From IMG/VR virus record IMGVR_UViG_3300027905_000003, positions 1-58,945 of that record: a DNA stretch of 58,945 nucleotides; one strand, written 5' to 3'. Origin of the DNA: a virus (Duplodnaviria > Caudoviricetes). Position numbers and translations under genes: made by a program. The notes under the pieces were generated by a model. It had not been told where the DNA came from. It ran no database searches and was given only the letters and a program-made list of their open reading frames with translations. This document shows, one piece after another, positions 4,856 to 39,141 of this stretch (positions within the stretch are counted from its first letter, which is position 1; the number at the start of each line of letters is the position of its first letter).

Positions 4856-4902
4856 GAACCGTTGACCGGAAGGTCGTGCGGGTTCAAGTCCCGCTCCCGG
4901 CA
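4818..4902 (+). tRNA. trnL: tRNA-Leu(TAA)
   Basis: Acceptor GCCGGGA/TCCCGGC, anticodon arm ACGGT-CTTAAGA-ACCGT, long variable arm, T arm GCGGG-TTCAAGT-CCCGC, A73. Confidence 0.92.
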
Positions 4903-20413: not shown

Positions 20414-20415
20414 TT

Positions 20416-21599: not shown

Positions 21600-21925
21600 G
21601 CGGGACGGGACGGATGGCGTCGGCGGTCCGGGCCGCGCAGGGCGAAGCGGTTGCGCTGCCGCGCGCGGCGAAGCTGAGTGCCGCGGTGTGGAGAATGGCG
21701 ATGAGTTGCGAGGGATCAGCACAGCGTTGGCTGTCGACGGCGTGCGATGCGGGACGTGGCGACGGGCCGGGAATCGAGGGGCGTGGGGGCACGTGGCCTA
21801 GCCATGGAGTACGAGGCCAAGCAAAGTGCCGGTAAGGCGATCGGGGCGTCGGGCCGCGTGGGGATCGGTGGCGTGGCGGAGGGTTTGCGCAGTGGCGCGA
21901 AGCGATGCGAAGGGGGAGCGGCTAG
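21600..21925 (+). ncRNA. Downstream 5-nt-periodic G-rich array
   Basis: GGGAC GGGAC GGATG GCGTC begins right after the stop codon; 17 of 21 pentamers start with G at 21781-21885. Confidence 0.65.
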
Positions 21926-21959
21926 ACATCTTCTCGGGTTCGACGATAGGTTGGAAGAC

Positions 21960-25369: not shown

Positions 25370-26017
25370 CTGCCCTACGGCGGCCAGCAGTCCCACGTCT
25401 CTCAGAACGGCACCCGTCCGAACAACGCGTATGCGCCGGACGGGTCTGGTCGTCGGACGCTCCCAAATAGAGTCTGGGTCGACGGAGACCAACGCGAAGC
25501 ATCCCGCGCCCGCGCCCCGCGATTCGGATCGCTCGCCTCGGCCTTTACTCCGCCCATCCCGCAGACGGGCAAGATCGCCCCAGGCGCCAAGCGCCCTGAT
25601 CCACGCAAAGATGCCTTAGGTCCCGAAGCGGGCTTCGCCAAGAAGCGGCAGGACGCGAGCCGGATGGGGAGAGCCTCGACGGCCGTGGTCAAGAGCCGAG
25701 CCATGATTGCGGGCGAGCTCTATGACGAGCACGGGAAGCCGATCGCGGCGGTCATCGATGCGACCCCCGCCTCGCGCAACGGGTCGGGTGGGTCCGGCGG
25801 CGGCGCTCGGTTGGGTCTCGCACCGGTCGCGACGCCCGGCCCGCGTCCGCTCACGCTGCCCAAAATCCCGACCTGGGGCTGGGTCGCCATCGCGGCCGCG
25901 GTAGGCCTTGGCGCCTACGCCGTCTTCGGGGATGACGTCGGCGGATCGGACGAATACGACGATGAGGATCTCGATGACGTCGACGTCGACGAGCCCGGGT
26001 CGATCGTGGCCGCATGA
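25370..26017 (+). CDS. Putative virion membrane protein with probable CTG start (M)PYGGQQ
   Basis: Frame is open from CTG 25370 through the annotated ORF 25664-26017. RFG and RLG motifs, TM WGWVAIAAAVGLGAYAVF, acidic tail. Confidence 0.6.
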   Translation: MPYGGQQSHVSQNGTRPNNAYAPDGSGRRTLPNRVWVDGDQREASRARAPRFGSLASAFTPPIPQTGKIAPGAKRPDPRKDALGPEAGFAKKRQDASRMGRASTAVVKSRAMIAGELYDEHGKPIAAVIDATPASRNGSGGSGGGARLGLAPVATPGPRPLTLPKIPTWGWVAIAAAVGLGAYAVFGDDVGGSDEYDDEDLDDVDVDEPGSIVAA

Positions 26018-26625
26018 GCTACGATCCCTCGCGCGCGGGCAGCGGCTTGCGCCTCTACCGGGGTCCCGATCTCCGCTCCCGCGTCACCCGGTTCGGCCAG
26101 GGCCTGGCGTTCAAGGCGCCGACCATTCTGTCCGCCAAGATGCTGGCGCCGGCGCCCGTCGCGCCCAAGCCCGCCGTGACGCTCAAGCCGGTGACCACGA
26201 CGACGCCATTCAAGCCCTTCGTCCTGCCCCCGACCATCGCCATCAACACGCCGTCGTTGCCCGGTCTCCCGGGTTTTCATATCACGCTGCCCACGGCGCC
26301 GACGCAGCCGCCGCCCACGATCACGATGACGCCGGCCCTCCCGCCTCTCACTGGCAGCAGCCCCGGCGTCCCGCTCACCGGCGGCCCATCGACGCCATCG
26401 AGCGGCGGTGCGCCTCCGACATCACTCGGCCCCTCGAACGTGCCGCCGATCTCGGATGGGTCGCCGGCTCCCCAACCCACGAGCACTGATGGCGGCGGCG
26501 GTGGGATCTCGGCTGCACCTGTCTTGAGCGCCGCAGCACCGGCCGCGGGCTTCCCATTGAACACGCTGCTGTTCCTGGCCCTGGGAGCCGTTGGCGTCTA
26601 CCTCCTCGCCACGAGTCACCACTAA
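26014..26625 (+). CDS. Pro/Thr-rich putative virion membrane protein
   Basis: RFGQ motif and C-terminal TM LLFLALGAVGVYLL. Confidence 0.75.
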   Translation: MSYDPSRAGSGLRLYRGPDLRSRVTRFGQGLAFKAPTILSAKMLAPAPVAPKPAVTLKPVTTTTPFKPFVLPPTIAINTPSLPGLPGFHITLPTAPTQPPPTITMTPALPPLTGSSPGVPLTGGPSTPSSGGAPPTSLGPSNVPPISDGSPAPQPTSTDGGGGGISAAPVLSAAAPAAGFPLNTLLFLALGAVGVYLLATSHH

Positions 26626-27587
26626 TGCCCTACGGGAACCAGAGCGCGAGCACGGGATCCTTCAGTGCCGTCCGGCGGGTGAATACCCCGTACGATCTGG
26701 GCGCACTCGATGCGAGAAGCTTGCTCGCCATGCGCGGGCGCTTGGGCGCGGTGCAATCGATGGCGACCACGGGTGTCGAAGCTCCGCCAGCCATGCCGCA
26801 CGGGATTACTCCGGCGTCGCACCACTACCCGCCGATGCGGGCGTTGAACCGGGTACCCCGACAAGGGTTCTCGCGGACGGCGTTCGCTCCCGGCGCTGAT
26901 GGCGTCCGCGCGTTCTATGCGATGCGCGGTCGGCTGGGTGAGACCTTGACCATGCGGTCGAGCCGCTATCCCTCGCGCACGGGTGCGCCGGGCTCGCTCA
27001 TGCGCGCGCCGATCGCGGGACGCTACGTCGCGAACGGTGGGCGACGCTTGGGTCAGGTCGCCGAGATCGCGACGGCGGCCACGAGCCTGGTCCCGGTGAT
27101 CACGACCATTCAAGGACTCTTCGGTCCCGGTGCATCAGGGGCAGACGCCGAGCGCCAAGCCAAGGTCTACAGCTACTACGAAGGCGCGATGACCGCGCCG
27201 GGCTCCGTGTCATCGGTCGATGATGTCATCACGTTAGCCGCCATCAGTACCAACGGCTACGACATCACCCAGAAGATCCAGCAGAACAACCCGCAGATCA
27301 CAAGAACGTACGCCCAGCAGGCGTTGCAGGAGCTGTCGTCTCAAGGCTGGATCAACGTCAACACGAGTAGCCCCAAGTACACCGGGATCGGGGCCTCGGG
27401 CGTGGTCTACAAGCCCACCGGGACCACGGGCTTGAACACCGAGGCGGCAGTCTCGCAGAGCGCACTGCCCGCGGGGAATACCGCAGCGCTAGGCGGGACG
27501 GCGGGTGGGTCGAGCACCACGCTCTTGCTCTTGGCCGCACTCGGCATCGGCGGCTTCCTCATTCTCCGGCAACGGGAGCACCACTAG
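26625..27587 (+). CDS. Putative virion membrane protein
   Basis: MPYG start; RLGA, RLGE and RLGQ; C-terminal TM LLLLAALGIGGFLIL. Confidence 0.8.
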   Translation: MPYGNQSASTGSFSAVRRVNTPYDLGALDARSLLAMRGRLGAVQSMATTGVEAPPAMPHGITPASHHYPPMRALNRVPRQGFSRTAFAPGADGVRAFYAMRGRLGETLTMRSSRYPSRTGAPGSLMRAPIAGRYVANGGRRLGQVAEIATAATSLVPVITTIQGLFGPGASGADAERQAKVYSYYEGAMTAPGSVSSVDDVITLAAISTNGYDITQKIQQNNPQITRTYAQQALQELSSQGWINVNTSSPKYTGIGASGVVYKPTGTTGLNTEAAVSQSALPAGNTAALGGTAGGSSTTLLLLAALGIGGFLILRQREHH

Positions 27588-27588
27588 C

Positions 27589-27876
27589 ATGCCCTACTTC
27601 CCCGGTGGCGGCGGCGTCGCCTACCAAGCGCCCCATGTGTTCTATCGCCAGCCTGCGCGCGGGACGCGCGGCCGATTGGGCCAGAGCTTGTCCGACATCT
27701 TAGGCATCGTCTCGGATGTCGCGGGGACGGTGAGCGATGACACGAGCTCGCCGAGCTCGTACTACGCCGCGCCGCCCGCGCCGGCGCCCGCCCCCGCGAC
27801 GGGGATCTCGTCGACCACGCTGCTCTTGGGTGCGGCCGTGGTTGGTGGGCTCATCTACTTCGGCACGAAGAAGTAG
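27589..27876 (+). CDS. Small putative virion membrane protein
   Basis: MPYF start, RLGQ, C-terminal TM ending in KK. Confidence 0.75.
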   Translation: MPYFPGGGGVAYQAPHVFYRQPARGTRGRLGQSLSDILGIVSDVAGTVSDDTSSPSSYYAAPPAPAPAPATGISSTTLLLGAAVVGGLIYFGTKK

Positions 27877-27880
27877 CGCC

Positions 27881-28516
27881 ATGGTCACCCACACGGTGTT
27901 GGCGCCGTTGACGGCCGCGATCGGGCGAGCGCATGGCCGCTTTGGGCAGTCGCACCACTATCCGCAGCCCGTGGCGGCTCGCGTCATCGGGACGTCAGGG
28001 AATGCCGCGCTCTCCCGTACGGCGTATGGCGTGGATCCCTACGTCACGTATCAGCAGGCGTACACGGGACGGTTCGCGGGACATCACTATCCGCGTCCGC
28101 GCATGGGGACCGTGCAGTGGCGCGGCGTCCGGTGGGCCGGACCGCGGCTCGGGCAGAACGTATTCACGGATCTCTACAACGCCGCGGTCAACGCGGGCGA
28201 GAACATCGCGGGCGGGTTGCCGATCAATGCGCCGAACGCGGGGGGCGGATCGGTGACGATCGCGCAGCCGTTCGTGGCGCAAAATGACTTCACGTTGCCA
28301 GATGGAACGCAAGTGGTGGCTGGCCAAACCGTCACGCCGGCTATGGCGAACGCCTACGTGAATGCCCAGGGCCAAGATCAGTCGACGCCCGATCCCACGG
28401 CCGGACAGACGCCCGGTCAGCAGTTGCAGCAGGCCGCGGCGGATGCCGGCCCGGGCGGGCTCCTCATCTTCGCCGGCATCGCAGCCGTGGGCCTCTTCTT
28501 CCTGCTCAAGAAATGA
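27881..28516 (+). CDS. Putative virion membrane protein
   Basis: RFGQ, RMGT, RLGQ and two HHYP motifs; C-terminal TM ending in KK. Confidence 0.75.
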   Translation: MVTHTVLAPLTAAIGRAHGRFGQSHHYPQPVAARVIGTSGNAALSRTAYGVDPYVTYQQAYTGRFAGHHYPRPRMGTVQWRGVRWAGPRLGQNVFTDLYNAAVNAGENIAGGLPINAPNAGGGSVTIAQPFVAQNDFTLPDGTQVVAGQTVTPAMANAYVNAQGQDQSTPDPTAGQTPGQQLQQAAADAGPGGLLIFAGIAAVGLFFLLKK

Positions 28517-28875
28517 CCGCGACGATGGCGAACCCCTCCCGGTCGATTCTCCTCTCGCGCGCCGCCGAGGACATCACCTTCTTGGCGCTTCGCGACGGGA
28601 AGAAGCGGACGCATCGCTTCCCAGCGGACGCCGTCCGCATCCGGCTCGCCGGCGACATGACCGTGCACCTCTCGCGGACCGATGGGGTGGCCGTGTTTCC
28701 GCAAGAGCCCTCAGGGCTCTTGTCGAAGGAAGTCGTGCAGCTCCGCTACCGCCATGAAGAAGATGGCGAGGACTACTTCCACGACTTCGATCCTGGCGTC
28801 TCGCTCATCGTGACGGGCAAGAGAGCCCATCTCTATCGCCCCGATGGGAAGCCCCTCTGGGGACGGTTCGACTGA
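28513..28875 (+). CDS. Hypothetical structural-region protein
   Basis: ANP near the N-terminus; YRHEEDGEDYFHDF. Confidence 0.65.
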   Translation: MTATMANPSRSILLSRAAEDITFLALRDGKKRTHRFPADAVRIRLAGDMTVHLSRTDGVAVFPQEPSGLLSKEVVQLRYRHEEDGEDYFHDFDPGVSLIVTGKRAHLYRPDGKPLWGRFD

Positions 28876-28876
28876 T

Positions 28877-29233
28877 GTGGACCCAAGACCTCTTTTCCGC
28901 CTGGTGCATTGCCCTCTGGCTGATCGCGAGCACGCAGCCTCGCTACGCCAGTACGCGCACGTCTTCCACCGGACGAACGTCATCTGCGTCGCATCCGCGT
29001 TCGCAGGTCTCCCGGAGACGCACCAGCTCGGGATCGCGCTCCACGAAGTCGGCCACGTCTTGGCGGGAGAGCGGGCGAGCGAGCGCGCGGCCACCCGAGC
29101 GGTCGAGCGGGAGAGCGGCATCCGCATCGAGTATCTCGACTCGTCGTTGCACGGCGACGCATTGGAATGGATCGCCGTCCGCGACAAGCGCCAGGCCATC
29201 GCGTTCCTCCGCGACTTCATCCGCGAGGAGTGA
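28877..29233 (+). CDS. Small HExxH (zincin-like) protein
   Basis: IALHEVGHVL with a downstream Glu; GTG start just after the upstream stop. Confidence 0.55.
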   Translation: MDPRPLFRLVHCPLADREHAASLRQYAHVFHRTNVICVASAFAGLPETHQLGIALHEVGHVLAGERASERAATRAVERESGIRIEYLDSSLHGDALEWIAVRDKRQAIAFLRDFIREE

Positions 29234-29236
29234 GTG

Positions 29237-30814
29237 ATGCCTGCTCCCCGCCGCGCGCACCACTACCTCATCAATCCCTCGGGCGCCCGGAGTCGACGGA
29301 ACCCGGTGCTCACGATCTTCGGCAACCCGAAACGAAACGCCGAGTTCTCGCGGCCCACGCAGCGTCGGATCTCGTCCTTCATCGGGCGCGAAGTGCGGAG
29401 CGGCGTGCCGGTCAAGCAAGCGGCGGCGATCGCGTATTCAAAAGCCCGGCGAGGCGCCCTCAAGAATCACGGCTACTACGGCGCACTGCCCTATCGGCCC
29501 GCGCCGAAGCGGACGAGCCAGGGCGGCGGAGCCGTGATGTTCCGCGACGTCCCCGTCGGCGGCCGCTTCCAACTCGCCGGCGGCGGCCCCACCTACACCA
29601 AAACCGCCCGCATGGGCTTTCACGGATCAGACCTCGTGTATCGAGCCAATAGAGGCCGTCGGAATGCGACCACTGGCGGGAGATCCCATTACGCCGCCGC
29701 CGGGAGAGCTCTGGGCTCTGCCGCCAAGTCCATCGGGACCGGAGTGTATCGCTCCGGCATCAAGTACGGAAAGAAAAGCTTGGCCGGGGCCGGCGCGGGC
29801 CTCTCGGCCGGATGGAAAGCCTTCCGCGCCGCCAACCACCCTCGTCGCGAGACGACACGTCGGAGAAAGAACATGGCAGCTCGCCGTAACAGCCGCCGCA
29901 ATCACCGCCATCGCGTGCGGTCTGTGCGGCGGAACCGCTCGCGCGTTCGTCAAAACACTCGCGCTCGCACGCGACGGAATCGCCCGCGCTCGCGCCGGAA
30001 CTACCGCGCCCGCGCCAATCGGCCACACCGCAACCGTCGGCGCCGGAACGTGCGGCACCGCGCCCGGATGAACAGCCCGCGCCGCAATCGCCGCCGTCGC
30101 AACGTGCGCCATCACGCCCGCCGCAACACTCACCGTCGTCGTCGGAACACCATGCGCACCCGTCGTCGCCGCAATGTGCACCACAGACGTCGGCGGAATA
30201 GCCATCGCGTGCATGCCCGTCGGCGGAACGTCCATCATCGGCGCCGGCGGAACACGCACCGGATGCACCACCGCCGCCGGAACCCCTTTGCCCGTCGTCG
30301 GCGCCGGAATCCGTTCACTGTCGGCGGCATGACGCAACTGGTCGTGAGCGGATTGATCACCGGTGGTGCGGCCGTCGGCGGGTATGGGCTCGTCAAGTTC
30401 CTCGACTCGCTGTACACGTTCCCGGTCTTGCAGACGACGAACGTCCCGGGTACGACGGCGACCGTGGGCGACACGCTCCAGAGCACGCTCCACGCGACAG
30501 GCATCACGATCGCGAGCGCGATGGTGATGAGAAAGGCCCGGCCGACGACGTTCGTTCGTGAGTTGGCCGCCGGTGTCATCGCCGGCGCCTGGCTCTCCGT
30601 CTTCTTGGACCTCGTCCGCTCGTGGACGGCCCTCCCGGCATCGGTGCAGGGCTACTTCGGCGCCTACCCCCGGATGAGCGCTTATCCGAGGATGGGTGCC
30701 ACCACGGGCTCGAACCTGATCGGCCCAGGCTCTTTGGGCTCCCGCGCCGCGACGGTGCAGGCGGCCCATGCGCGTTACGGCTCCTACCCGGCCATGGGGG
30801 GCGCCAGTTGGTAG
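29237..30814 (+). CDS. Arg/His-rich RRN-repeat protein with hydrophobic C-terminal helices (candidate DNA-condensing core/membrane protein)
   Basis: About 20 Arg-rich units punctuated by Asn at 29873-30316, ending RRRNPF twice, then three hydrophobic helices and YPRM repeats. Confidence 0.8.
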   Translation: MPAPRRAHHYLINPSGARSRRNPVLTIFGNPKRNAEFSRPTQRRISSFIGREVRSGVPVKQAAAIAYSKARRGALKNHGYYGALPYRPAPKRTSQGGGAVMFRDVPVGGRFQLAGGGPTYTKTARMGFHGSDLVYRANRGRRNATTGGRSHYAAAGRALGSAAKSIGTGVYRSGIKYGKKSLAGAGAGLSAGWKAFRAANHPRRETTRRRKNMAARRNSRRNHRHRVRSVRRNRSRVRQNTRARTRRNRPRSRRNYRARANRPHRNRRRRNVRHRARMNSPRRNRRRRNVRHHARRNTHRRRRNTMRTRRRRNVHHRRRRNSHRVHARRRNVHHRRRRNTHRMHHRRRNPFARRRRRNPFTVGGMTQLVVSGLITGGAAVGGYGLVKFLDSLYTFPVLQTTNVPGTTATVGDTLQSTLHATGITIASAMVMRKARPTTFVRELAAGVIAGAWLSVFLDLVRSWTALPASVQGYFGAYPRMSAYPRMGATTGSNLIGPGSLGSRAATVQAAHARYGSYPAMGGASW

Positions 30815-30911
30815 TGCACCGCTGATCGCTTCACTGCCTGTAGTCAGTCACTCGTAAAGAGCACTTCGTAGTTCACAACCGTTCACCCTCTCGTCGTGAG
30901 ACGACACGTTT

Positions 30912-31742
30912 ATGACTCGCATTCAGCAGTTCAGCCGATCGGCGGTGACTTCACTCTTCGCGCTCATCGCCGCCATGACAGCGGCGGTGGGCCGGTGGGT
31001 CAACGCCCGCTTCGATCACTGGTACGACCGCTCGAAGAAGATCCTCGCGTTGCTCGACGCCGACGGTCCGGCCATCGCGCGCAAGCTGCGCTTGGGCATG
31101 ATCCGCATCGACACGAGCGCCTTGACGCAGGATCAGTTGCAAGCCGCGTCCACGCCGGCGACGGCGCTCGAAGGGGAAACCATCGCGTATTCGTTCTGGG
31201 ACACCCAGACGTATCCCTCCGGTGGTCAGCAGTCCTTGACGTTCTTCCAGACTACGAACTCGGACGCCTCGCTCTCGAATATGCCGATGAGCGGATCGTT
31301 CCCGAACCCGATCTGGTTCTGCCCGCAGTTCGTCACGTTGGATGCGCTCGGCATCCCGTCGAACACCGCGGCGACCTCCGCCGGTTCCGTGAATACCGGT
31401 CTCGCCAACGATCTCTACACGTTGGCCAACTCGGGCCGGCTCTGGTTCCAGTTCACGCTGGCCCAGAAGATCTACGCCCAGTTCCCGGCGACGGGCATCC
31501 ACCCCTCGGGCGGCCCGGTCGTCTTCAACACCTCGACCGGCGTAGCGGCCACCCAGCAGCAGTACGCGCTCTGGGGTATCCCGGATGGCGATCTCTACGT
31601 CGGCCCTCCAGGGACGTTAGTCATCCCGCCGATGCAGAACTTCACCGTCAACCTCTTCACGAGCACCACGGCGCCGACGATCACCACGAGCCTCCCCATC
31701 CGCATCACGATGTGGGGCTCGATCATCCGCCGCGTTCTGTAG
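30912..31742 (+). CDS. Candidate major capsid protein, large (jelly-roll-like)
   Basis: Beta-rich 276 aa (FWDTQTY, LTFFQ, SNMPMSGSFP, LVIPPMQNFTV) directly after the basic protein; hairpin leader. Fold is inferred. Confidence 0.6.
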   Translation: MTRIQQFSRSAVTSLFALIAAMTAAVGRWVNARFDHWYDRSKKILALLDADGPAIARKLRLGMIRIDTSALTQDQLQAASTPATALEGETIAYSFWDTQTYPSGGQQSLTFFQTTNSDASLSNMPMSGSFPNPIWFCPQFVTLDALGIPSNTAATSAGSVNTGLANDLYTLANSGRLWFQFTLAQKIYAQFPATGIHPSGGPVVFNTSTGVAATQQQYALWGIPDGDLYVGPPGTLVIPPMQNFTVNLFTSTTAPTITTSLPIRITMWGSIIRRVL

Positions 31743-31769
31743 TCCCGGTTTCCGGCCACCGCCGTCGTT

Positions 31770-31810
31770 TCAGCGAACTATCAGTTTGAAAGCAATTGAT
31801 AGTTCGCTGA
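31770..31810 (+). promoter_or_regulatory. Long inverted repeat between the two capsid candidates
   Basis: TCAGCGAACTATCA pairs perfectly with TGATAGTTCGCTGA (14 bp, extendable). Confidence 0.7.
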
Positions 31811-31883
31811 TCGGCGCGATGGACCTGCACCTCTGAAGGATCCTGAAGGCTGTCTTTCACGCACGCCGTGAGGCGTTCTGTCA

Positions 31884-32408
31884 ATGGCTGGATCTGGACC
31901 GATAGCGGCCGCGCAAGTCGCGCCGACTGTCCTGCCGATCATCCCGTACCCGAACTGGCTGGCGCTTTTGCCGCCCCAGTACTTGGGGCTCGTCAAGAAG
32001 TTCGCGACGTACTCGGCCGTCTTCACGGGATCGAACGTGTTGAACGCGAGTGCGACGCTCACGGTCCCGGTCCAGCTCAATAACGACTCGGACTTCTGCG
32101 TCCTGGCCATCAATGCGATGGTCATCTCGACGGACAGTACCACGCTCTACACGTACCAGCCGATCACGATTCAAGTCACCGATACGCGATCGAACACGCA
32201 GCTCTTCACGCAGCCCGAGCTCCTGCAGAACGTCGCCCCCAACGCGGCGACCCCGTTCTATCTCCCCTATCCCTACGTGTTCGATGGCGGGAGTGTCATC
32301 CAGACGACGCTCGTCAACCTCATCGCAGGCACGAACTTCAACGTCTACGTCAGCTACAAGGGCTTCAAGATCTATCCGACGCCCATGTCGCAGATCACGA
32401 GCGAGTGA
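31884..32408 (+). CDS. Candidate major capsid protein, small (single jelly-roll-like)
   Basis: Beta-rich 174 aa (VQLNNDSDF, IQVTDT, PFYLPYPYVF, VSYKGFKIY). Fold is inferred. Confidence 0.55.
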   Translation: MAGSGPIAAAQVAPTVLPIIPYPNWLALLPPQYLGLVKKFATYSAVFTGSNVLNASATLTVPVQLNNDSDFCVLAINAMVISTDSTTLYTYQPITIQVTDTRSNTQLFTQPELLQNVAPNAATPFYLPYPYVFDGGSVIQTTLVNLIAGTNFNVYVSYKGFKIYPTPMSQITSE

Positions 32409-32676
32409 GCCATGGCCTCCTCTCGCAAAGGGCGCCGGCATCGCCCGAATCGCATTCCCTCGGCTGACGAACTCGAACGCTTGGTCGATGACTTGGCCGA
32501 GGAGCGCCATGTCCCGCTCCATAGCTGGGCCGAGATCGGGGCAGGGACCGTCATGGAGATCGCCGACGAATTGGACTACGAGACGGACGACGAGGACATC
32601 GAGTCGATCCAGATCCGTCTCCGGGCACTCGCTGACATCCTGAGCAAGTTGGGCGACCGGCTCCGGTGATGCGCCC

Positions 32677-33327
32677 ATGAGTGTCTTGGACCGTTTGCCG
32701 CGCCGGCATCCCTTCGCGCCCAAGACGATCGCGAACCCGACCGGCATGCCCCCGGACGTCGAGGGCGCGTCGGGACGCTACGCGCAGGTCAACCCGGCGC
32801 TCAACTACGACGCCTACACGCCGGCCCCGGGGGTATCCGCCCCGCTCCAGCAGCCCACGCCCAATCTCCAGATCCATCCGGCCTGGGAGTATCCGCCCAA
32901 GGGCAGTCAGAACTTCTCGGCCCCGAACCGAAGCTTGGGTGTCATCACCGGGACACTCGCCGCCGGCGCCGGGTCAACCCTCGTCTTAGCCTCGCTCGCC
33001 TACTCCTCTCCGTCCAACTACATCACCGTCGTCCGCACGGTGAGTGCCTTCATCAATGCCCCGGACGGGAATAACGACATCAGTTGGATCTTGCAGGTGA
33101 ACGGGCAGGCGGTGCAGAACGGGGCGTTCACGATCTTCCCGTTCATTGCCGGCGCGGTGATCCGTTCCTTCTCGGTCGTCTTCCGCGACATCGAGCCCAA
33201 CTCGACGATCAGTCTCTTGATTCAGAACAACGCCGCCTCGGGGCCTTATACGGTGGGCGGCGGGTTCAGTGGCTGGTCGTATGCGATTCAGGCCGAGCAG
33301 TTGTTGACGGGCGGGTTGCCGAATTGA
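32677..33327 (+). CDS. Beta-rich structural protein (penton/vertex candidate)
   Basis: Pro-rich N-terminus followed by a beta-strand-rich domain; lies in the structural cluster. Confidence 0.5.
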   Translation: MSVLDRLPRRHPFAPKTIANPTGMPPDVEGASGRYAQVNPALNYDAYTPAPGVSAPLQQPTPNLQIHPAWEYPPKGSQNFSAPNRSLGVITGTLAAGAGSTLVLASLAYSSPSNYITVVRTVSAFINAPDGNNDISWILQVNGQAVQNGAFTIFPFIAGAVIRSFSVVFRDIEPNSTISLLIQNNAASGPYTVGGGFSGWSYAIQAEQLLTGGLPN

Positions 33328-33588
33328 GTACCTGGCCTCCGCTATCTCCACCGACTGTGTCGACCCGGTCCCCAGATCATCCGAACTGGTGGGTCCCCGA
33401 TACCCTGCGCTTTGCGGTCGCGATACCCGACGTCTTGTGGTATGTCGTTGTGCACGCGCCGATCGCCGCGCTTCGGCATCTCGTTGGCAAGCGAGATCGG
33501 TCTAGGCGTCGTGCGCTGCGCTGGTACCTCCAAAACAGTCGCGCGCCGGTCACCGAGCAGTTGTTGACGGGCGGGTTGCCGAATTGAG
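33293..33588 (+). repeat. 36-bp direct repeat (33293-33328 and 33553-33588) bracketing ORF 33324-33587
   Basis: CCGAGCAGTTGTTGACGGGCGGGTTGCCGAATTGAG occurs twice; both ORFs end EQLLTGGLPN. Confidence 0.95.
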
Positions 33589-33925
33589 ACTCGCCTCGCG
33601 TCGCCGCAATTGCGTTCGCCGGAACCCGGTCGAGACCGAGACGAACGCATTGGAAGAAGTCTTGGACGCGTTTCGCGCCCTCAAGCGCCTCCGCGAGCAT
33701 CTCGTCGAGTTGGCCCACGTCATCACCGCCGAGGACGAGGAGGTGGCCGAGACCACGAGCCGCGCGCTGCTCCGTGACCTCGATGACAGCGAGGCCGGAC
33801 TCGTCAACGCCATGCGCGTGCTGATCTCGGGGAAGTACAAGCGCCAAGCCATCGAAGCGCGCATCGTCCGCGTCGAAGATGATCCCGACTACGGGGACAC
33901 AGACCCGCTCGCGAGCTTCGAGTAG
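33584..33925 (+). CDS. Small helical protein with RRN/RRNP N-terminus
   Basis: RRRNCVRRNPVET; followed by 33930-34139 (MPRRANP). Confidence 0.6.
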   Translation: MRLASRRRNCVRRNPVETETNALEEVLDAFRALKRLREHLVELAHVITAEDEEVAETTSRALLRDLDDSEAGLVNAMRVLISGKYKRQAIEARIVRVEDDPDYGDTDPLASFE

Positions 33926-34142
33926 TCGCATGCCGCGTCGCGCCAATCCGCTCTCGGTTGATCCCGCCTCGCTCGACGACTTCGCACGCCAAGTCGACCA
34001 CGCCGTGCGAGAACTCGACACCATCGACTGGCCTGACCGCAAAGTCTTCCGCGACGTCGTGGACCAAGCGAACGGGGACGGGAGCGCGTTCGCGACGGAT
34101 CTCCGGACGCTGGCATCGGCGCTCCGCAAGTACGGGTAAGCG

Positions 34143-35447
34143 ATGGCGTTCGCGATCGAAGACCTCGTCGTCTCCCCCGGTATCAATGCGGGCTCGCCCT
34201 TCGCGTTGGGCGATGTCTTGTACGTGGCCCAGGTGTCTCCCGCGATCGCGGCCTCGACGCCCGTCATCCAGATCAACACGGCGACCAGTCCGCAGCAGGT
34301 CCAGATCGGACCCTTCGCCACGATCCCCGGTGCGACGGTCATCGGAAGCGGGGCCGTCGTCCCCACGGGAGGGGCCGGCAACGAAGTCGTCATCGGCACC
34401 AACGCCTCGACGGGCTTGGATACGCAAGACTCCATTGCGATCGGGCATGGGGCCACGACGGGCATTCTCAATAGCGCGAACGGCGGCGTGGCGCTCGGGG
34501 TCGGGGCCACGGTCGGGGGCGCCGGCTCGAATGCGGGGGGAGGCGTCGCAGTCGGGGAGACGGCCACCGCGAACAACGGCGTGGCGATCGGGGCCGCAGC
34601 CGTCTGTCTCTTGGGACAAGTCGCGATCGGGTCCGGGTCACTAGCGCAGAACTTCGGCGTCGCGGTCGGCGGCGGGGCCGCGGCGTTTATCGGCGCGGCG
34701 CACGGCAACGGCAGCGTCGCGATCGGCCGCAATGCGAGCGCCGGCGAGTCGACCGACATCGCGATCGGCACTGGGAACGGTGGGACCCTGGGCGGGGAAG
34801 GCGGGAACGTCATGCTGGGCTCAGGCGTCGGGAGCGCGGGCGTCACGGGCCACGACTGCGTCTGCGTCGGCTCCTCGAGCAACTCGGGCGGCGGCTTCAC
34901 CGCGGCCGCCTCCTCGGGCAACTTCTCGACGGTCATAGGCGGCAACTCGACGGCCGCCCACATCGGCGTCCACATCTTCGGCCGCGGGATCACGAGCACG
35001 GCCAACAACCAGTGCGTGATCGGTGGGACCGATGACCCGGTCGCCACGGTGTACGTCGGGAATGGGATCACGAACACGGGGCCGCAGAACGTCATTCTCG
35101 GCGTGACGGGCGCATCCGGCGCCAACGTGGGCGGCGCGCAACTCACGATCGCGGGCGGGATCTCGACCGGCACGGGCTTGGGTGGACCCATCCTGTTCCA
35201 GACGACGCCTGCTGGGCTCGCGGGCTCATCTCCCAATGCGCTGACGACCGCGCTCACGATCGACTCGACGCAGCTCGTGACGTTCGCCAATGCGCCCTTC
35301 CTGACGACGCAAAGCGCGCCGGGCGTCGCCAACGCGGGCACGTTGACGAATCTCCCGGCGGCGGCGGCGGCCGGGAATCCGCAGGTCTACTTGCAACTGA
35401 AGTCGACCGGCCACACCTACGTCGTGCCAGCCTGGCAGGTCGCGTAG
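34143..35447 (+). CDS. Spike/adhesin with YadA-head-like beta-roll repeats
   Basis: Repeated [VI]A[ILV]G motifs at about 13-17 aa spacing; Gly-rich. Confidence 0.7.
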   Translation: MAFAIEDLVVSPGINAGSPFALGDVLYVAQVSPAIAASTPVIQINTATSPQQVQIGPFATIPGATVIGSGAVVPTGGAGNEVVIGTNASTGLDTQDSIAIGHGATTGILNSANGGVALGVGATVGGAGSNAGGGVAVGETATANNGVAIGAAAVCLLGQVAIGSGSLAQNFGVAVGGGAAAFIGAAHGNGSVAIGRNASAGESTDIAIGTGNGGTLGGEGGNVMLGSGVGSAGVTGHDCVCVGSSSNSGGGFTAAASSGNFSTVIGGNSTAAHIGVHIFGRGITSTANNQCVIGGTDDPVATVYVGNGITNTGPQNVILGVTGASGANVGGAQLTIAGGISTGTGLGGPILFQTTPAGLAGSSPNALTTALTIDSTQLVTFANAPFLTTQSAPGVANAGTLTNLPAAAAAGNPQVYLQLKSTGHTYVVPAWQVA

Positions 35448-35459
35448 AGAAACGACGAT

Positions 35460-36776
35460 ATGGCGACCTCCATCATCGACACGATCGTCCCGACGCCGGC
35501 GACGCCGCCCCCTGTGATCTCGGTGTTCGGTCGGGTGGGCGCCGTGGTCGCCCAGACGGGGGATTACACGGTGGCCCAGGTGACCGGGGCCGCCCCGTTA
35601 GCCTCCCCCGCCTTGACGGGAGTCCCCACGGCTCCCACCGCCGCGCCTGGGACCAACACGACACAGCTCGCGACGACCGCCTTCGTGCAATCCGCCTCGC
35701 CGGTGACGTCGGTGTTTGGCCGGACCGGGGCCGTGGTCGCCCAGACCGGCGACTACACCGTCGCGCAGGTGACCGGCGCGGCACCCTTGGCCTCTCCTGC
35801 TTTGACTGGGGTGCCCACGGCCCCGACGGCCGCTGCGGGCACCGATACGACGCAGCTCGCCACGACCGCCTTTGTCCAATCCGCCTCTCCCTCGCAGACC
35901 ACTTTCACCGCGGCCGGCGCCCAGACGTACACGATTCCCTTGGGCGCGACGTTCATCGACTTCTTCATCTACGGGAGTGCCGGCGGCGGCGGGGGGGGAC
36001 GGGAAGGACCCGCAGCAGAAGCCTCAGTCGGCGGCGGTGGTGGTGGCGGTGGCGGCTACCTCTTCCTCCGCTACCCAGTCTCGGTCTTCACCGCGAACCT
36101 CGACACGCAGCTCACGATCACGGTGGGCGCCGGCGGGACGCCGGGTGCGGCGGCCACGGCCAATTCGACGAACGGCGGGAACGGCGGCACGGGCGGCACG
36201 ACCACGATCGTCGGCGCGACGTCGGCCGTGGTCTATGCCAGCATCCCTGGTGCAGGCGGGGGCGGGGGCGGACAGGCGGCCGCTGGTGGGGCGGGTGGGA
36301 CAGCCCAGTCCACGTCGCAAGGCTTCGGCGCGCATTCTCCAGAGATCGGTGAGGTTGGCGGATCGGCGTCGGCGACGGGCGGGGTTGGAGGGAACGGGAC
36401 CCAGCAGAACTCCTTGGTCGCGGCCATTTCGGATGCCGGGTCCTCGGGCTCGGCCGGCGGCGGGATCAGTACCGGTAACACGGCGGCCGCTGGGGGGATT
36501 GCGGGCGCGGCCGCGGGCTACACCGGGACCTTCAGCCAAGCGGCCGGCGGCACCGTCGGGAACAATGGCAACAACGGCTACACTCCACCGGCGGGCGTCC
36601 CCTACTCGGGCGGCGGCGGCTCGGGCGGTGGCGGCAACACAGCGGGTGTGGGCGGCACGGGCGGGCTGGGCGGACCCGGCGCGGGCGGTGGCGGCGGCGG
36701 CGCCTCGCGGAACGGCGCCAACTCGGGCGCTGGCGGGGCGGGCGGGAATGCGGGAGTATACGTGTATGCCCACTGA
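35460..36776 (+). CDS. Fibre/spike protein with 2 x 63-aa repeat and a Gly-rich domain
   Basis: SVFGR.GAVVAQTGDYT...APLASPALTGVPTAPTAA..T.TTQLATTAFV repeats at a 189-nt period (35520, 35709); poly-Gly C-terminal half. Confidence 0.75.
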   Translation: MATSIIDTIVPTPATPPPVISVFGRVGAVVAQTGDYTVAQVTGAAPLASPALTGVPTAPTAAPGTNTTQLATTAFVQSASPVTSVFGRTGAVVAQTGDYTVAQVTGAAPLASPALTGVPTAPTAAAGTDTTQLATTAFVQSASPSQTTFTAAGAQTYTIPLGATFIDFFIYGSAGGGGGGREGPAAEASVGGGGGGGGGYLFLRYPVSVFTANLDTQLTITVGAGGTPGAAATANSTNGGNGGTGGTTTIVGATSAVVYASIPGAGGGGGGQAAAGGAGGTAQSTSQGFGAHSPEIGEVGGSASATGGVGGNGTQQNSLVAAISDAGSSGSAGGGISTGNTAAAGGIAGAAAGYTGTFSQAAGGTVGNNGNNGYTPPAGVPYSGGGGSGGGGNTAGVGGTGGLGGPGAGGGGGGASRNGANSGAGGAGGNAGVYVYAH

Positions 36777-36817
36777 TCTGATTCAGGGCCTCTCCATCAT
36801 CTCACCCCGAGCGGGAC

Positions 36818-36916
36818 ATGAGCAAATTGGACCAGCGACTCTGGCTCGTGATCGTGGTGGGCGCCGTCCTCTTCACCGCTCTCGTAGTGTGGCTCGTGGC
36901 CGAGAACATGCGGTAA
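36818..36916 (+). CDS. 32-aa single-TM peptide
   Basis: MSKLDQRLWLVIVVGAVLFTALVVWLVAENMR; below the ORF-track cutoff. Confidence 0.5.
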   Translation: MSKLDQRLWLVIVVGAVLFTALVVWLVAENMR

Positions 36917-36993
36917 CCTCGGGGCTTCTTTCGGTCGCGATGCCGCATCACGCGAAGGCGCTCATCGTCGCGGAATCGGACTAAGTCCATCCC

Positions 36994-37455
36994 ATGGCCA
37001 ACCCTCCTCCTTATCCGGCCGCCGTGACCACGTCGAGCACGACTGCGCTCTCAGGGATCACGCAGTCCGTAGTCAACGGGATGAACGAGATCACCCTCCC
37101 CGTGATCGTGGTGTCGGGCGCGATCTCGGGTCAGGCCACGGTCGGCGACTTCGTGTATCTCCAGACCCCCGAATTGGCCGGAGCCACGGTACTGGATGCG
37201 AATACGAATGAGATCCTCGCCAGTCTCGCGCTCTTTCAAACCGCATTCTTCCTCGCCTCGGCGAACCTCGTGTGGAAAGCCGTGGCCGCCTTGGCGCCCG
37301 TGTGCTTGCGGCTCATCCCCAAGGGCGCGGTCAACACGCTCGCCTTCGGCAGCGCGAACGCCGCAACGGAGATCACGACGCCGGGCGCGCTCGCGGGCTT
37401 TATCCCCGTCATTGCCCCCAATGGGGCGATCGGTTACATGCCCTACTGGCAATAA
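36994..37455 (+). CDS. Putative structural/spike-associated protein
   Basis: MANP start; C-terminal PGALAGFIPV...YMPYW resembles the end of 34143-35447. Confidence 0.6.
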   Translation: MANPPPYPAAVTTSSTTALSGITQSVVNGMNEITLPVIVVSGAISGQATVGDFVYLQTPELAGATVLDANTNEILASLALFQTAFFLASANLVWKAVAALAPVCLRLIPKGAVNTLAFGSANAATEITTPGALAGFIPVIAPNGAIGYMPYWQ

Positions 37456-37820
37456 CACTTCCGGAGACCCGCTATGCACTGGCTCGATGACGTCGTCGCC
37501 ACCCTCACCAAAGAAGCCCAACGCTGGAGAAGCTCACACGCCGACAAAGCGGAAGCGCATGCGACGGCGGCGGCATTGCTGCGTCGCTACGCACTCGCCA
37601 ACGAATCCCACGAAGCGGTGAAAGCCGCGCTGGCCGAGCATCCGGTCGAGGCATCCGATGTCGCCCCTGCTCCCGTCGTGACTGAGGTGCGCGATCGCGT
37701 CGAACTGGTGCCGCCCGTGCATCCGGTCGACCCCGATGCCGAAACCCCGACCGTATAAGAATGCCATTGTAATGGCCTAAGTATTTTTCTCTAACGCACG
37801 CCGTGAGGCGTTCCGTTCAC

Positions 37821-38279
37821 ATGCCCTTCCTCGACATTCAGCACGAAGTCCTCGACGTCTTCGGCTCGGGGGCGACCGGCTTCAAGCCCGTCGTACGTAC
37901 GACGTATGGGTTCGACTCCTCCATAGGCTTCGGGTACCGACTCCAGAAGCCCGTGTTTCAGGCGAACATCGTCGTCGATCTGAACCTTGGGAACTACATC
38001 AGGGTCATCGCGACAGCGAACACCAACATTACGCTCCTCGCCCCGGTGAACGTGCCACAGATATTCGCGATGCCGATCGTGATTGAGATTTCCAACGCGA
38101 GCGGGGGGGCCATGGGTTCAGTGACCCTCAATGCGGCGTACCTCTCGCCGTCGACGGCGGCGTTCTCGACGCAACCAGCCAATGGTAAAAACCAGGTGGC
38201 CGGATGGTTCAACGTTGGAACCCAAGCCGTTCCGGTGTGGCACCAGTGGTTCATACAATCCAGTGATTCGAGTAATTGA
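37821..38279 (+). CDS. Beta-rich putative structural protein
   Basis: Shares a 20-nt leader with 31884; beta-rich composition. Confidence 0.6.
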   Translation: MPFLDIQHEVLDVFGSGATGFKPVVRTTYGFDSSIGFGYRLQKPVFQANIVVDLNLGNYIRVIATANTNITLLAPVNVPQIFAMPIVIEISNASGGAMGSVTLNAAYLSPSTAAFSTQPANGKNQVAGWFNVGTQAVPVWHQWFIQSSDSSN

Positions 38280-38481
38280 CCCTCATGCGAACATGCTTCC
38301 GCCATCCTGATCGCGAGACGTCGGTCGTCTCGATGTTCGTCCATCGCACCTTCACCGTCGGCGCGGGCGAGGAGAAATCCGTGATGGCGGTCTGTGGGGC
38401 CGAGGCGATGTGTGAGGAGTGCTTTCTCGGCACCGGGGCGGGGAGCGCTGCGGATTGGACTCGGGTCAGCGGGGCCTGTCG

Positions 38482-39141
38482 ATGACGACGGTCACCGGCA
38501 TCGACGTCGCGGGCGATGTCCGCCCCTACTTGCCGCAGTTCAAAGCGGCGGGGATCTCATTCGTGTTCCGCTACTACGCGCTGCAAGAAGACACGCGGAT
38601 TCCAGGGAAGATCATCTCGGCGGATGAAGCGCAAGCGATCAGCGCGGCGGGATTCAAACTGGGCGCGGTGTTCGAGAACGGACAGCCGACGACTCCGGAG
38701 TACTTCACGAGCGACCGGGGCCGAACCGACGCGGCCATCGCGTTGCAGTGCGCGGCGCGCATCGCGCAGCCCGCGAATACGCCGATCTTTTTCACGGTCG
38801 ACGGCGACCTGCCGTACGGAGACATCAGCACCGCGGTCTTCAACTATTTCGTCGGCATCCGGAACGCGATCTCACCCGCGTATCCGGTCGGGGTCTACGG
38901 CTCAGGATTAGTCTGCGAGAAGATGACGGACTGGGCGCTCGCCAAGTACTCCTGGCTCGCCGGCGCGAAAGACTGGGCGGGATACAGTGACTTCCTACCT
39001 CGCGCGACGATCGTCCAGGGATCACTGCCGGCCGCACTCCACGGGATTCCCGACTTCCCGTATTCGGACAGTGATGGGGATACGACATCGGCTATTGACT
39101 ACGGGGGATTTCAGGTGCCGGTCGACGTGAGTGCCGCATGA
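38482..39141 (+). CDS. DUF1906 (GH25-like) glycoside hydrolase, probable endolysin
   Basis: GIDV, FVFRYY, GAVFE, PIFFTVDGD and VGVYGSGLVC. Confidence 0.85.
   Translation: MTTVTGIDVAGDVRPYLPQFKAAGISFVFRYYALQEDTRIPGKIISADEAQAISAAGFKLGAVFENGQPTTPEYFTSDRGRTDAAIALQCAARIAQPANTPIFFTVDGDLPYGDISTAVFNYFVGIRNAISPAYPVGVYGSGLVCEKMTDWALAKYSWLAGAKDWAGYSDFLPRATIVQGSLPAALHGIPDFPYSDSDGDTTSAIDYGGFQVPVDVSAA

What the first reader, a model, noticed from the sequence alone, without database searches (positions are those of the whole stretch)
25370..38279. Large temperate tailless virus with two putative jelly-roll capsid proteins and no recognisable packaging ATPase
Seen: in an apparently complete circle I found no terminase, portal, HK97 capsid, tail or tape-measure gene, and no convincing A32/FtsK-HerA-type Walker A protein among the ORFs. 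Present instead are several TM-anchored proteins, a basic core protein, adjacent beta-rich 276- and 174-aa ORFs, and spikes. Knowledge: single-jelly-roll membrane-containing viruses such as Thermus phage P23-77 use two capsid proteins of roughly these sizes, but they have much smaller genomes and encode an ATPase. Inference: this may be a little-characterised lineage that co-assembles DNA with a condensing protein instead of pumping it.
Basis: partly seen in the sequence, partly recalled or inferred. Interest (0 to 1): 0.85.

Follow-up and report, generated by a model that had tools for sequence, protein, structure and literature searches.

The report
Tailless jelly-roll virus without packaging motor
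This is the complete 59-kb circular genome of an uncultured peat and lake virus that seems to build a tailless, probably membrane-lined shell from two small jelly-roll proteins and has no recognisable DNA-packaging motor, so it belongs to a widespread group of bacterial viruses that I could not find described in print.

Summary
The window is a closed circle: a 77-bp terminal repeat, classed as direct terminal repeats with 100% estimated completeness. I found no terminase, portal, HK97 capsid or FtsK/A32 ATPase. No credible ORF holds a canonical Walker A in any of six frames.

The gene pair recurs in four other circular elements of 12.5-32 kb. In each it sits directly behind an arginine/lysine-rich protein with a membrane helix. 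The large-capsid-protein family has 318 clusters in metagenomes and no Pfam or PDB sequence match.

My best reading is a tailless, internal-membrane virus whose DNA is condensed by a membrane-tethered protamine-like protein, as in SPV1, and not pumped. The fold and gene-content steps are shown; the capsid role, the membrane and the packaging route are inferred. The scan has already reported similar motorless lineages on other DNA.

The parts
15789..17213 (+). Conserved 474-aa Pro/Ala-rich protein of unknown role, upstream of the morphogenesis genes
   Evidence: Homologues in G001, G002 (BLASTP) and G003:C23 (iterated HMM). No Pfam, PHROG or PDB match. The 'APNGDGKS' in the G001 homologue is not conserved, so it is not a P-loop.
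21747..22532 (+). Transglutaminase-like (Cys-His) protein, homologue of SSIP-1 structural protein gp34
   Evidence: Present in 5 of 5 genomes, with invariant C187 and H221. 2 of 5 members match PF01841 (best E 5.9e-10). The family HMM hits SSIP-1 gp34 at E 1.7e-24, and gp34 itself matches PF01841.
25664..26017 (+). 117-aa protein with a hydrophobic stretch and an acidic tail
   Evidence: Translation. The hydrophobic stretch was seen by eye and is below my window threshold.
26014..26625 (+). 203-aa Pro-rich protein with a C-terminal membrane helix
   Evidence: Hydrophobic window at residues 177-195.
26625..27587 (+). 320-aa protein with a C-terminal membrane helix; its central domain has a paralogue in 23892-24803
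   Evidence: Hydrophobic window at residues 296-314. 51-52% identical to G001_19131-19922 and G002_29706-30476, which ORF 23892-24803 also hits.
27505..27876 (+). Small protein with a C-terminal hydrophobic tail; likely true start at 27589 (MPY...)
   Evidence: Translation. The start is inferred from the stop of the preceding gene at 27587.
27737..28516 (+). Protein with a C-terminal membrane helix; likely true start at 27881
   Evidence: Hydrophobic window at residues 239-257. Homologues in G001 and G002.
28844..29233 (+). 129-aa protein with an HExxH motif
   Evidence: Motif read in the translation. No Pfam or PHROG match. Function not tested.
29234..30814 (+). 526-aa protamine-like Arg/His/Asn-repeat protein with two hydrophobic helices: proposed membrane-tethered DNA condenser
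   Evidence: R+K 23%, D+E 2%, a 40-aa window with 72% R/K/H, helices at 369-387 and 440-458. An analogous basic protein with a helix lies directly upstream of the capsid pair in G001, G003:C23, G387:C85 and G002, across the circle junction. Near-identical contigs from RNA libraries lie on 29764-30886.
30912..31742 (+). Larger jelly-roll protein (MCP1): N-terminal long helix 3-50, jelly-roll 88-274; conserved core from M63 (nt 31098)
31884..32408 (+). Smaller jelly-roll protein (MCP2): second capsid protein or penton
32677..33327 (+). 216-aa beta-sandwich protein, TNF/C1q/BclA-like: candidate vertex or spike base
   Evidence: Atlas structure search TM 0.44-0.52 to BclA C-terminal, C1q and collagen-tailed proteins (the Atlas model has pLDDT 0.62). 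Homologues in G001, G002 and G003:C23 at the same position.
34143..35447 (+). 434-aa glycine-rich fibre or spike protein
   Evidence: No Pfam or PHROG match of its own. Fibre or spike role inferred from its glycine-rich composition and its place beside 35460-36776.
35460..36776 (+). 438-aa glycine-rich fibre or spike protein
   Evidence: PF21722 Gly_rich_2, E 4e-10. Many loose ends and joints in a lake-water DNA run at 35371-36722 suggest strain-variable sequence.
36994..37455 (+). 153-aa protein of unknown role
   Evidence: No Pfam or PHROG match. No homologue in the four relatives.
37803..38279 (+). 152-158-aa beta-sandwich like phage-fibre C-terminal domains: probable receptor-binding part
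   Evidence: Atlas structure search TM 0.64-0.67 to viral clusters, some carrying Phage_phiTE_241_C or DUF4082. Homologues in G001, G002 and G003:C23.
38419..39141 (+). Lysin with an Rv2525c-like glycoside-hydrolase-like domain
   Evidence: PF08924, E 1.4e-26. 62-68% identical to G001 and G002 proteins. Endolysin PHROGs hit in this ORF group.
3570..4682 (+). Tyrosine integrase (basis of 'temperate')
   Evidence: PF00589, E 1.4e-6. PHROG integrase families.
4818..4902 (+). tRNA-Leu(taa) beside the integrase; possible attachment region
   Evidence: ARAGORN. No near-identical host tRNA was found.

Best explanation
The window is the complete circular genome (58,868 bp without the repeat) of a tailless bacterial virus. 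It belongs to a broad lineage that I could not find described in print.

Shown:
- The genome has no recognisable terminase, portal, HK97 capsid or P-loop ATPase of any kind.
- Two adjacent genes encode predicted jelly-roll proteins whose best solved matches are capsid proteins of internal-membrane viruses.
- The gene pair, a basic protein with a membrane helix directly upstream of it, and a transglutaminase-like protein recur in circular elements of 12.5 to 59 kb that carry different replication genes.

Inferred:
- The two jelly-roll proteins form an icosahedral shell. Either both are shell proteins, as in Helvetiavirae, or the larger is the shell protein and the smaller the penton, as in SPV1.
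- The run of proteins with C-terminal membrane helices sits in an internal lipid membrane.
- The glycine-rich proteins, the TNF/C1q-like protein and the fibre-tip-like protein form vertex spikes.
- The genome is not pumped into a preformed shell. The protamine-like Arg/His/Asn-repeat domain of the 526-aa protein condenses it, that protein's hydrophobic helices tie the DNA to the membrane, and membrane and shell close around the condensed DNA. This is the route proposed for the ATPase-less archaeal virus SPV1.
- Release uses the glycoside-hydrolase-like lysin.
- An integrase beside a tRNA gene and Cro/CI-type regulators suggest a temperate life style.
For: Completeness: 77-bp terminal repeat; classed DTR, completeness 100.

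No motor or tailed-phage genes:
- Pfam on 118 ORFs plus 20 proteins singly and PHROGs on 79 ORFs plus 10 proteins.
- Six-frame searches for 6 families with nothing at E<=1.
- No canonical Walker A in a credible ORF.

MCP2: pLDDT 72.9. HHIV-2, HCIV-1 and SH1 capsid chains come first or near first and cover 127-129 residues of chains 167-175 long.

Conservation:
- MCP1 followed by MCP2 in 5 of 5 circular genomes: the window, G001 (30,196 bp, DTR 127), G002 (31,786 bp, DTR 50), G003:C23 (17,762 bp, DTR 55) and G387:C85 (a 12,532-bp circle assembled about 1.5 times).
- A basic protein with a helix directly upstream in 5 of 5.
- No canonical Walker A in a credible ORF of G002 or G003:C23. Those of G001 and G387 are judged spurious.
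- Replication genes differ: DUF3987 in the window, G001 and G002; Rep_1 in G003:C23. So the structural genes are the stable core.

Link to a real virion: the transglutaminase-like protein is homologous to gp34, annotated as a structural protein of the cultured membrane phage SSIP-1.

Precedent: SPV1 and FLiP lack packaging ATPases (PMC8812541, passages read).

Occurrence: near-identical DNA is held by peat runs and by lake-water runs of three further studies. Contigs of three peat RNA libraries from one study lie on the basic-protein gene and on MCP1 with 0-1 differences.
Against: - No particle, lipid or host has been seen.
- No sequence or profile link to any known capsid family: PDB profile search gave one chance hit at E 0.084, 0 of 137 family members match Pfam, and PF22210 gave nothing.
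- MCP1 and MCP2 show no profile similarity to each other.
- Absence of an ATPase is negative evidence from sequence methods. Only 2 of about 100 proteins were folded, so a divergent or non-P-loop motor, or use of a host translocase, is not excluded.
- Tail-fibre PHROGs and a fibre-tip-like domain are also what a tailed phage would carry.
- RNA-library contigs can hold DNA and cannot rank genes (tool note).
- The SSIP-1 relative does carry a P-loop structural protein, gp40 (AAA_25).
- The membrane helices come from a simple hydrophobicity window, not a trained predictor.
Confidence: 0.58

Rival explanations
1. The capsid reading is right, but DNA is still pumped. Either a host translocase (such as FtsK) is recruited, or a viral protein with no recognisable P-loop (for example the conserved 474-aa protein at 15789-17213) acts as or recruits the motor.
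For: All classified two-jelly-roll viruses (Helvetiavirae) encode an FtsK-HerA ATPase (PMC8812541). The cultured relative SSIP-1 has a P-loop structural protein, gp40. Several conserved proteins have no assigned function. Only two proteins were folded.
Against: No P-loop motif or family in any frame of the window, G002 or G003:C23. SPV1 and FLiP show that motor-free assembly exists. A basic protein with a helix is conserved next to the capsid genes in 5 of 5 genomes.
Confidence: 0.17
2. It is a very divergent tailed phage whose head, portal and terminase genes escape profile searches.
For: Tail-fibre PHROG families hit the glycine-rich proteins. The 152-aa protein resembles phage-fibre C-terminal domains. 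The genome size and single-strand gene order are typical of siphoviruses.
Against: No match at E<=1 to terminase, portal or HK97 families in six frames. No Walker A for a terminase. Complete circular relatives of 12.5 and 17.7 kb carry the same capsid pair and rolling-circle-type replication genes, which leaves too little room for a tailed virion module. The best-conserved late proteins fold as jelly-rolls.
Confidence: 0.06
3. It is not a virus but an integrative plasmid-like element. The jelly-roll proteins are then secreted or surface carbohydrate-binding or adhesin proteins and the membrane proteins are cell-envelope factors.
For: Jelly-roll domains are common in cellular lectins and enzymes, and MCP2 ties with such domains. 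The genome carries NikA-like, resolvase, integrase, methyltransferase and glycosyltransferase-like genes. No virion has been seen.
Confidence: 0.1

Closest known systems
[quoted passage not shown]
   Different: SPV1 infects a hyperthermophilic archaeon and has about 20 kb (recalled). This genome has 59 kb and bacterial-type lysins. There is no sequence similarity. Here a second jelly-roll gene always follows the first. The condenser here is an Arg-rich protein with hydrophobic helices; homology to the SPV1 core protein was not tested.
[quoted passage not shown]
   Same: Bacterial host and a circular 43.8-kb genome. A cultured, membrane-containing tailless phage counted among the two-capsid-protein 'vertical single beta-barrel' viruses (PMC6356626 and PMC4958249, passages read). 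Its structural protein gp34 is homologous to ORF 21747-22532 (E 1.7e-24). It has adjacent structural proteins of 210 and 211 aa.
   Different: The MCP1 and MCP2 profiles find nothing in SSIP-1 at E<=10, and hhalign probability is under 1%. SSIP-1 has a P-loop structural protein, gp40 (AAA_25, E 5.3e-11), and no strongly basic protein upstream of gp45/gp46. The original paper (Aalto 2012) is not held.
Helvetiavirae / Halopanivirales (P23-77, IN93, HHIV-2, HCIV-1, SH1)
   Different: The hallmark FtsK-HerA packaging ATPase is absent. No match to PF22210. From recall, the gene order is larger-then-smaller here and the reverse in P23-77, and the genome is two to three times larger.
Flavobacterium phage FLiP
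   Same: A bacterial, membrane-containing tailless virus without a packaging ATPase (PMC8812541). The FLiP penton and capsid proteins appear among the weaker fold matches.
   Different: From the papers read, FLiP has a double jelly-roll capsid protein and a small ssDNA genome. Here there are two separate single jelly-rolls and up to 59 kb.

Membership tests
Caudoviricetes (tailed phages) | HK97-fold major capsid protein | tested here: not met
   PF05065: no match at E<=1 in six frames of G000-G002. No capsid family among 118 ORFs. The two conserved late proteins fold as jelly-rolls. Other ORFs were not folded.
Caudoviricetes (tailed phages) | Large terminase and portal | tested here: not met
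   PF03237, PF03354 and PF04860: no match at E<=1. No canonical Walker A in a credible ORF.
Helvetiavirae (Sphaerolipoviridae, Simuloviridae, Matshushitaviridae) | Two single jelly-roll capsid protein genes side by side | tested here: met
   Both adjacent ORFs are predicted jelly-rolls, and the pair is kept in 5 of 5 genomes. The capsid role itself is inferred.
Helvetiavirae (Sphaerolipoviridae, Simuloviridae, Matshushitaviridae) | FtsK-HerA superfamily (A32-like) packaging ATPase | tested here: not met
   PF01580 and PF04665: no match at E<=1 in G000, G001, G002 or G003:C23. No canonical Walker A in a credible ORF.
Helvetiavirae (Sphaerolipoviridae, Simuloviridae, Matshushitaviridae) | Structural likeness of the capsid proteins to VP16/VP17 or VP4/VP7 | tested here: inconclusive
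Helvetiavirae (Sphaerolipoviridae, Simuloviridae, Matshushitaviridae) | Internal lipid membrane | not testable with these tools
   Only indirect: proteins with C-terminal hydrophobic helices upstream of the capsid genes.
Portogloboviridae (SPV1) | Single jelly-roll capsid protein of the VP4 type | tested here: met
Portogloboviridae (SPV1) | No genome-packaging ATPase | tested here: met
   for the window. For SPV1: PMC8812541.
Portogloboviridae (SPV1) | One capsid protein gene plus a penton; archaeal (Sulfolobales) host; genome about 20 kb | tested here: not met
   A second jelly-roll gene is always adjacent, though it could be the penton. The lysins are bacterial-type, Rv2525c-like and SLT. 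The genome is 59 kb. Host and size of SPV1 are recalled.
Portogloboviridae (SPV1) | Genome condensed by a viral DNA-binding protein inside the membrane | not testable with these tools
   A functional analogue is proposed from composition and position only. Homology to the SPV1 core protein was not tested.
SSIP-1-like phages (unclassified) | Homologue of the transglutaminase-like structural protein gp34 | tested here: met
   Family HMM against SSIP-1 ORFs: gp34, E 1.7e-24, 80.7 bits. Both sides match PF01841.
SSIP-1-like phages (unclassified) | Capsid proteins homologous to gp45/gp46 | tested here: inconclusive
   No HMM hit at E<=10. hhalign probability 0.4-0.6%. A 211-aa unnamed viral protein (I1ZBH9) matches the MCP1 model at TM 0.40/0.51, but I could not establish what virus it is from.
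SSIP-1-like phages (unclassified) | P-loop structural protein (gp40, AAA_25) | tested here: not met
   gp40 matches AAA_25 at E 5.3e-11. No AAA or P-loop family appears among the 118 window ORFs, and there is no Walker A.

The most novel reading that the evidence does not exclude
These genomes are the bacterial form of the evolutionary stage that Krupovic and colleagues inferred but had no example of: a virus that already has two separate single jelly-roll shell proteins but has not captured an FtsK-type packaging ATPase. It fills its shell by a distinct mechanism, in which a protamine-like protein anchored in the internal membrane condenses the DNA while membrane and capsid close around it. 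That mechanism would scale from 12.5 kb to at least 59 kb of dsDNA, and the group would merit a new family-or-higher taxon linking Portogloboviridae, SSIP-1 and Helvetiavirae.
Probability: 0.3. Interest if true: 0.9.

Novelty: new variant of a known kind. Interest (0 to 1): 0.75.

Why it matters
Every classified tailless dsDNA phage with a membrane (Tectiviridae, Corticoviridae, Matshushitaviridae) packages its genome with an FtsK/A32-type ATPase. Per the passages I read, motor-free assembly is documented for the small ssDNA phage FLiP, for the archaeal SPV1 and for an expansive metagenomic group of double jelly-roll viruses, some of them linked to Asgard archaea.

A bacterial lineage that spans 12.5-59 kb, occurs in peat and lakes, has 318 capsid-protein clusters in metagenomes and has no motor would show that condensation-driven encapsidation is a general and scalable route for dsDNA. 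It would also give a testable intermediate for the proposed origin of Helvetiavirae from a portoglobovirus-like ancestor.

In practice, standard marker-based annotation sees almost nothing in these genomes, so they are likely to be under-counted or mislabelled in viromes.

Tried and rejected
- Complex prediction on the MCP1 core (63-276) with MCP2 returned 'no answer' (score 0.00). I draw nothing from it.
- The search for related loci with A1 found nothing in viral contigs or genome contigs. With P0010, P0016 and P0022 it found nothing in viral contigs. The metagenome-contig scan was not used, because at most half of such a record may be held, too little to judge absence of a gene.
- tblastn of the window MCP1 (whole and core) and of the G387 homologue against 50,697 phage records gave no match, even at E 1-5.
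- Paralogy of MCP1 with MCP2 or with ORF 32677 was not detected (hhalign probability <=0.2%).
- Host. G003:C23 sits in a MAG titled uncultured Verrucomicrobiaceae. Only 2 of 401 genomes sampled from that phylum hold an MCP1 relative, and no other phylum could be sampled, so there is no enrichment test. The window's tRNA-Leu region was not found in G003 or G387. It reaches only 75-85% identity in 31 of 401 genomes. The host stays unknown.
- Candidate Walker A motifs. 'APNGDGKS' in the G001 homologue of the 474-aa protein is not conserved in the alignment. The other three in G001 (frames of 165-288 aa) were not examined further. 'AKIENGKT' in G387 lies 18 residues from the end of a 163-aa protein with an N-terminal hydrophobic helix. 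I read it as not an ATPase, by inference.
- RNA-library contigs gave no cover on MCP2, ORF 32677 or the spike genes.
- The SSIP-1 paper (PMC3344969) is not held, and I could not identify what the BFVD hit I1ZBH9 is.

Full report
WHAT THE WINDOW IS. The first and last 77 bases are identical. The record is an IMG/VR virus record classed as having direct terminal repeats, with an estimated completeness of 100. The window is therefore a closed circle of 58,868 bp. G+C is about 64%. By third-position G+C, the credible genes all lie on the + strand. Three tRNA genes are present: Leu-taa, Gly-gcc and His-gtg.

GENE CONTENT. I scanned 118 ORFs in three groups against Pfam and 20 of the larger proteins singly. 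The hits were:
- HTH regulators.
- A tyrosine integrase (3570-4682) and a resolvase.
- DUF3987 (355-1665), a DUF3631 remnant and a NikA-like protein.
- An M50 peptidase (14228-15358).
- A Ro60/TROVE-vWA protein (55050-56501).
- Methyltransferase and weak glycosyltransferase domains.
- Gly_rich_2 (35460-36776).
- An Rv2525c-like glycoside-hydrolase-like lysin (38419-39141).

No terminase, portal, capsid, tail, tape-measure or P-loop family appeared. PHROGs on 79 of the 118 ORFs and on 10 proteins added tail-fibre, endolysin, integrase, primase and helicase families and again no head or packaging family. The 39 ORFs of 40-59 kb were not run against PHROGs.

Six-frame searches gave nothing at E<=1 for Terminase_6N, FtsK_SpoIIIE, Pox_A32, TerL_ATPase, Phage_capsid and Phage_portal, while the control genomes rang. 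The motif [GA]xxxxGK[ST] occurs four times in six frames, never in a credible ORF, and a relaxed scan changed nothing. So the genome appears to lack P-loop NTPases altogether, not only a packaging enzyme.

THE TWO CAPSID CANDIDATES.

ORF 30912-31742 (276 aa) has only 7 near relatives in 5.8 billion proteins. A profile of these finds 318 clusters at E<=0.001 (151 at 1e-10) among 1.84 billion representatives. Nearly all are 205-215 aa and align to residues 63-276. None of 137 members matches Pfam, and the profile finds no solved structure by sequence.

With that alignment AlphaFold2 gives pLDDT 87.4 and pTM 0.74: a long N-terminal helix (3-50) and an eight-stranded beta domain (88-274).
- Foldseek against the PDB lists almost only viral jelly-roll capsid proteins, at weak E-values. 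Against BFVD the named rows are mainly circovirus-type capsids, plus an uncharacterised 214-aa protein of an uncultured marine virus and an unnamed 211-aa protein.

The fold is therefore shown for both proteins. Kinship with a particular capsid family is suggested for the larger one and open for the smaller. The two show no profile similarity to each other.

THE REST OF THE MODULE.
- Upstream of the pair lie proteins with hydrophobic C-terminal helices (26014, 26625, 27505, 27737).
- Two small proteins follow, one with an HExxH motif.
- Then comes a 526-aa protein with 23% R+K, a 40-residue window of 72% R/K/H and two hydrophobic helices.
- Downstream lies a 216-aa protein whose Atlas model resembles TNF/C1q/BclA-type trimeric jelly-rolls (TM 0.44-0.52).
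- Two glycine-rich proteins follow.
- A 152-aa protein is like phage-fibre C-terminal domains (TM 0.64-0.67).
- The lysin closes the module.

RELATIVES. Single-protein scans brought in three relatives, and a search of 401 genomes of that MAG's phylum found one more (2 of 401, counting the MAG itself).

| Element | Size | Ends | Source |
|---|---|---|---|
| G001 | 30,196 bp | DTR 127 | IMG/VR record |
| G002 | 31,786 bp | DTR 50 | IMG/VR record |
| G003:C23 | 17,762 bp | 55-bp repeat | contig of a MAG titled uncultured Verrucomicrobiaceae |
| G387:C85 | 12,532-bp circle, 38% G+C | contig is about 1.5 copies of the circle | genome of the same phylum |

Features shared by the five genomes (the window plus these four):
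- The larger jelly-roll gene is followed by the smaller in all five.
- A basic protein with a hydrophobic helix lies directly upstream in all five. In G002 it runs across the circle junction.
- The transglutaminase-like protein (window 21747-22532) is present in all five.
- The 216-aa, 158-aa and 474-aa proteins are found in four of five.

G002 and G003:C23 have no canonical Walker A in a credible ORF. One G001 instance is not conserved among homologues. The G387 instance is at the end of a small protein.

Replication genes differ: DUF3987 at 75% identity in the window, G001 and G002, and a Rep_1 rolling-circle initiator in G003:C23. A stable late module joined to changing replication modules is what virus families look like.

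LINK TO A CULTURED VIRUS. Following a lead in the scan's earlier notes, I fetched SSIP-1.
- The transglutaminase-like family profile hits its annotated structural protein gp34 at E 1.7e-24. Both sides match Transglut_core.
- SSIP-1 has adjacent structural proteins of 210 and 211 aa, but my capsid profiles find nothing there.
- It carries a P-loop structural protein, gp40 (AAA_25), which the window lacks.
- Two papers place SSIP-1 among the two-capsid-protein, vertical single beta-barrel viruses (passages read).

OCCURRENCE. Near-identical DNA is held by peat metagenome runs, some of which may be the source, and by lake-water runs of three further studies. In three peat RNA libraries of one study, short contigs with 0-1 differences lie on 25417-25615, on the basic-protein gene (29764-30886) and on the larger capsid gene (30779-31748). 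This is compatible with transcription, but the tool warns that DNA can be present in such libraries.

MECHANISM.

Shown:
- The genome is closed.
- It has no recognisable motor and no tailed-phage hallmark.
- It has two conserved jelly-roll proteins.
- A conserved basic protein with a membrane helix sits beside them.

Inferred:
- An icosahedral shell over an internal membrane that carries the helix-tailed proteins.
- Vertex spikes made from the glycine-rich, TNF-like and fibre-tip-like proteins.
- Encapsidation by condensation of the DNA on the membrane-tethered Arg-rich domain, with membrane and shell closing around it.

Krupovic and colleagues note that SPV1 and FLiP lack packaging ATPases. 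They propose that helvetiaviruses arose from a portoglobovirus-like ancestor by duplication of the capsid gene and capture of an FtsK-like ATPase (PMC8812541, passages read). A bacterial lineage with two jelly-roll genes and no ATPase would fit between those stages. I cannot show that the two genes here are duplicates.

RIVALS. A host-supplied or unrecognised motor is the main rival (0.17), because absence rests on sequence methods and only two proteins were folded. A non-viral element (0.10) and a divergent tailed phage (0.06) are less likely, for the reasons given under each.

NOVELTY. Six keyword searches of the open-access library found no description of such a lineage. Supplements were closed and the SSIP-1 paper is not held. 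The scan itself has already reported similar motorless jelly-roll lineages on other DNA, so this is a further member and not a first sighting within the scan. I rate it a new variant of a known kind: tailless, membrane-containing jelly-roll viruses.

Noticed in passing
window, whole genome: No P-loop NTPase of any kind is detectable in a 59-kb virus genome. Even the DUF3987 replication protein (355-1665) has no canonical Walker A, so replication would have to rely on host helicases.
   Followed up: partly
window 14228-15358: A virus-encoded M50 (site-2 protease family) membrane metallopeptidase (E 1e-34), upstream of the conserved 474-aa protein. Several membrane proteins of the late module carry repeated R-G-R-[LF]-G-like motifs (seen by eye), which another first-stage note reads as a processing code. 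Not tested.
   Followed up: no
window 55050-56501: A Ro60/TROVE plus vWA protein encoded by the virus. Another first-stage note reports Y-RNA-like elements just upstream.
   Followed up: no
window 23892-24803 and 26625-27587: The central domain of the 320-aa membrane protein has a paralogue fused to a DUF3631-like segment. Both hit the same single protein in G001 and G002.
   Followed up: partly
window 35371-36722: In a lake-water DNA run, contigs break, skip or diverge repeatedly inside the two glycine-rich spike genes, while flanking genes are covered by clean contigs. This suggests strain-variable host-recognition proteins.
   Followed up: no
L014 (G387:C85) 1-18527: The contig is a 12,532-bp circle assembled about 1.5 times, with 38% G+C. 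It carries the capsid pair, lysine-rich membrane proteins, an integrase-like protein and a 469-aa protein that could be a replication initiator by its motifs (by eye). It may be the smallest member of the lineage seen here.
   Followed up: partly
window 58011-58655 and 3570-4682: A serine recombinase (Resolvase, E 1.2e-37; assigned to 58011-58655 by its position and size) is present as well as the tyrosine integrase.
   Followed up: no
window 50385-53103: A fused FkbM/TylF-type methyltransferase and a weak GT9-like protein suggest that the virus modifies a sugar or cell-surface structure.
   Followed up: no
window 20416-21925: G-skewed stretches without credible ORFs flank ORF 21108-21599 (GC skew 0.218 in 20001-22000). 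Another first-stage note covers them. They lie just upstream of the transglutaminase-like gene.
   Followed up: no
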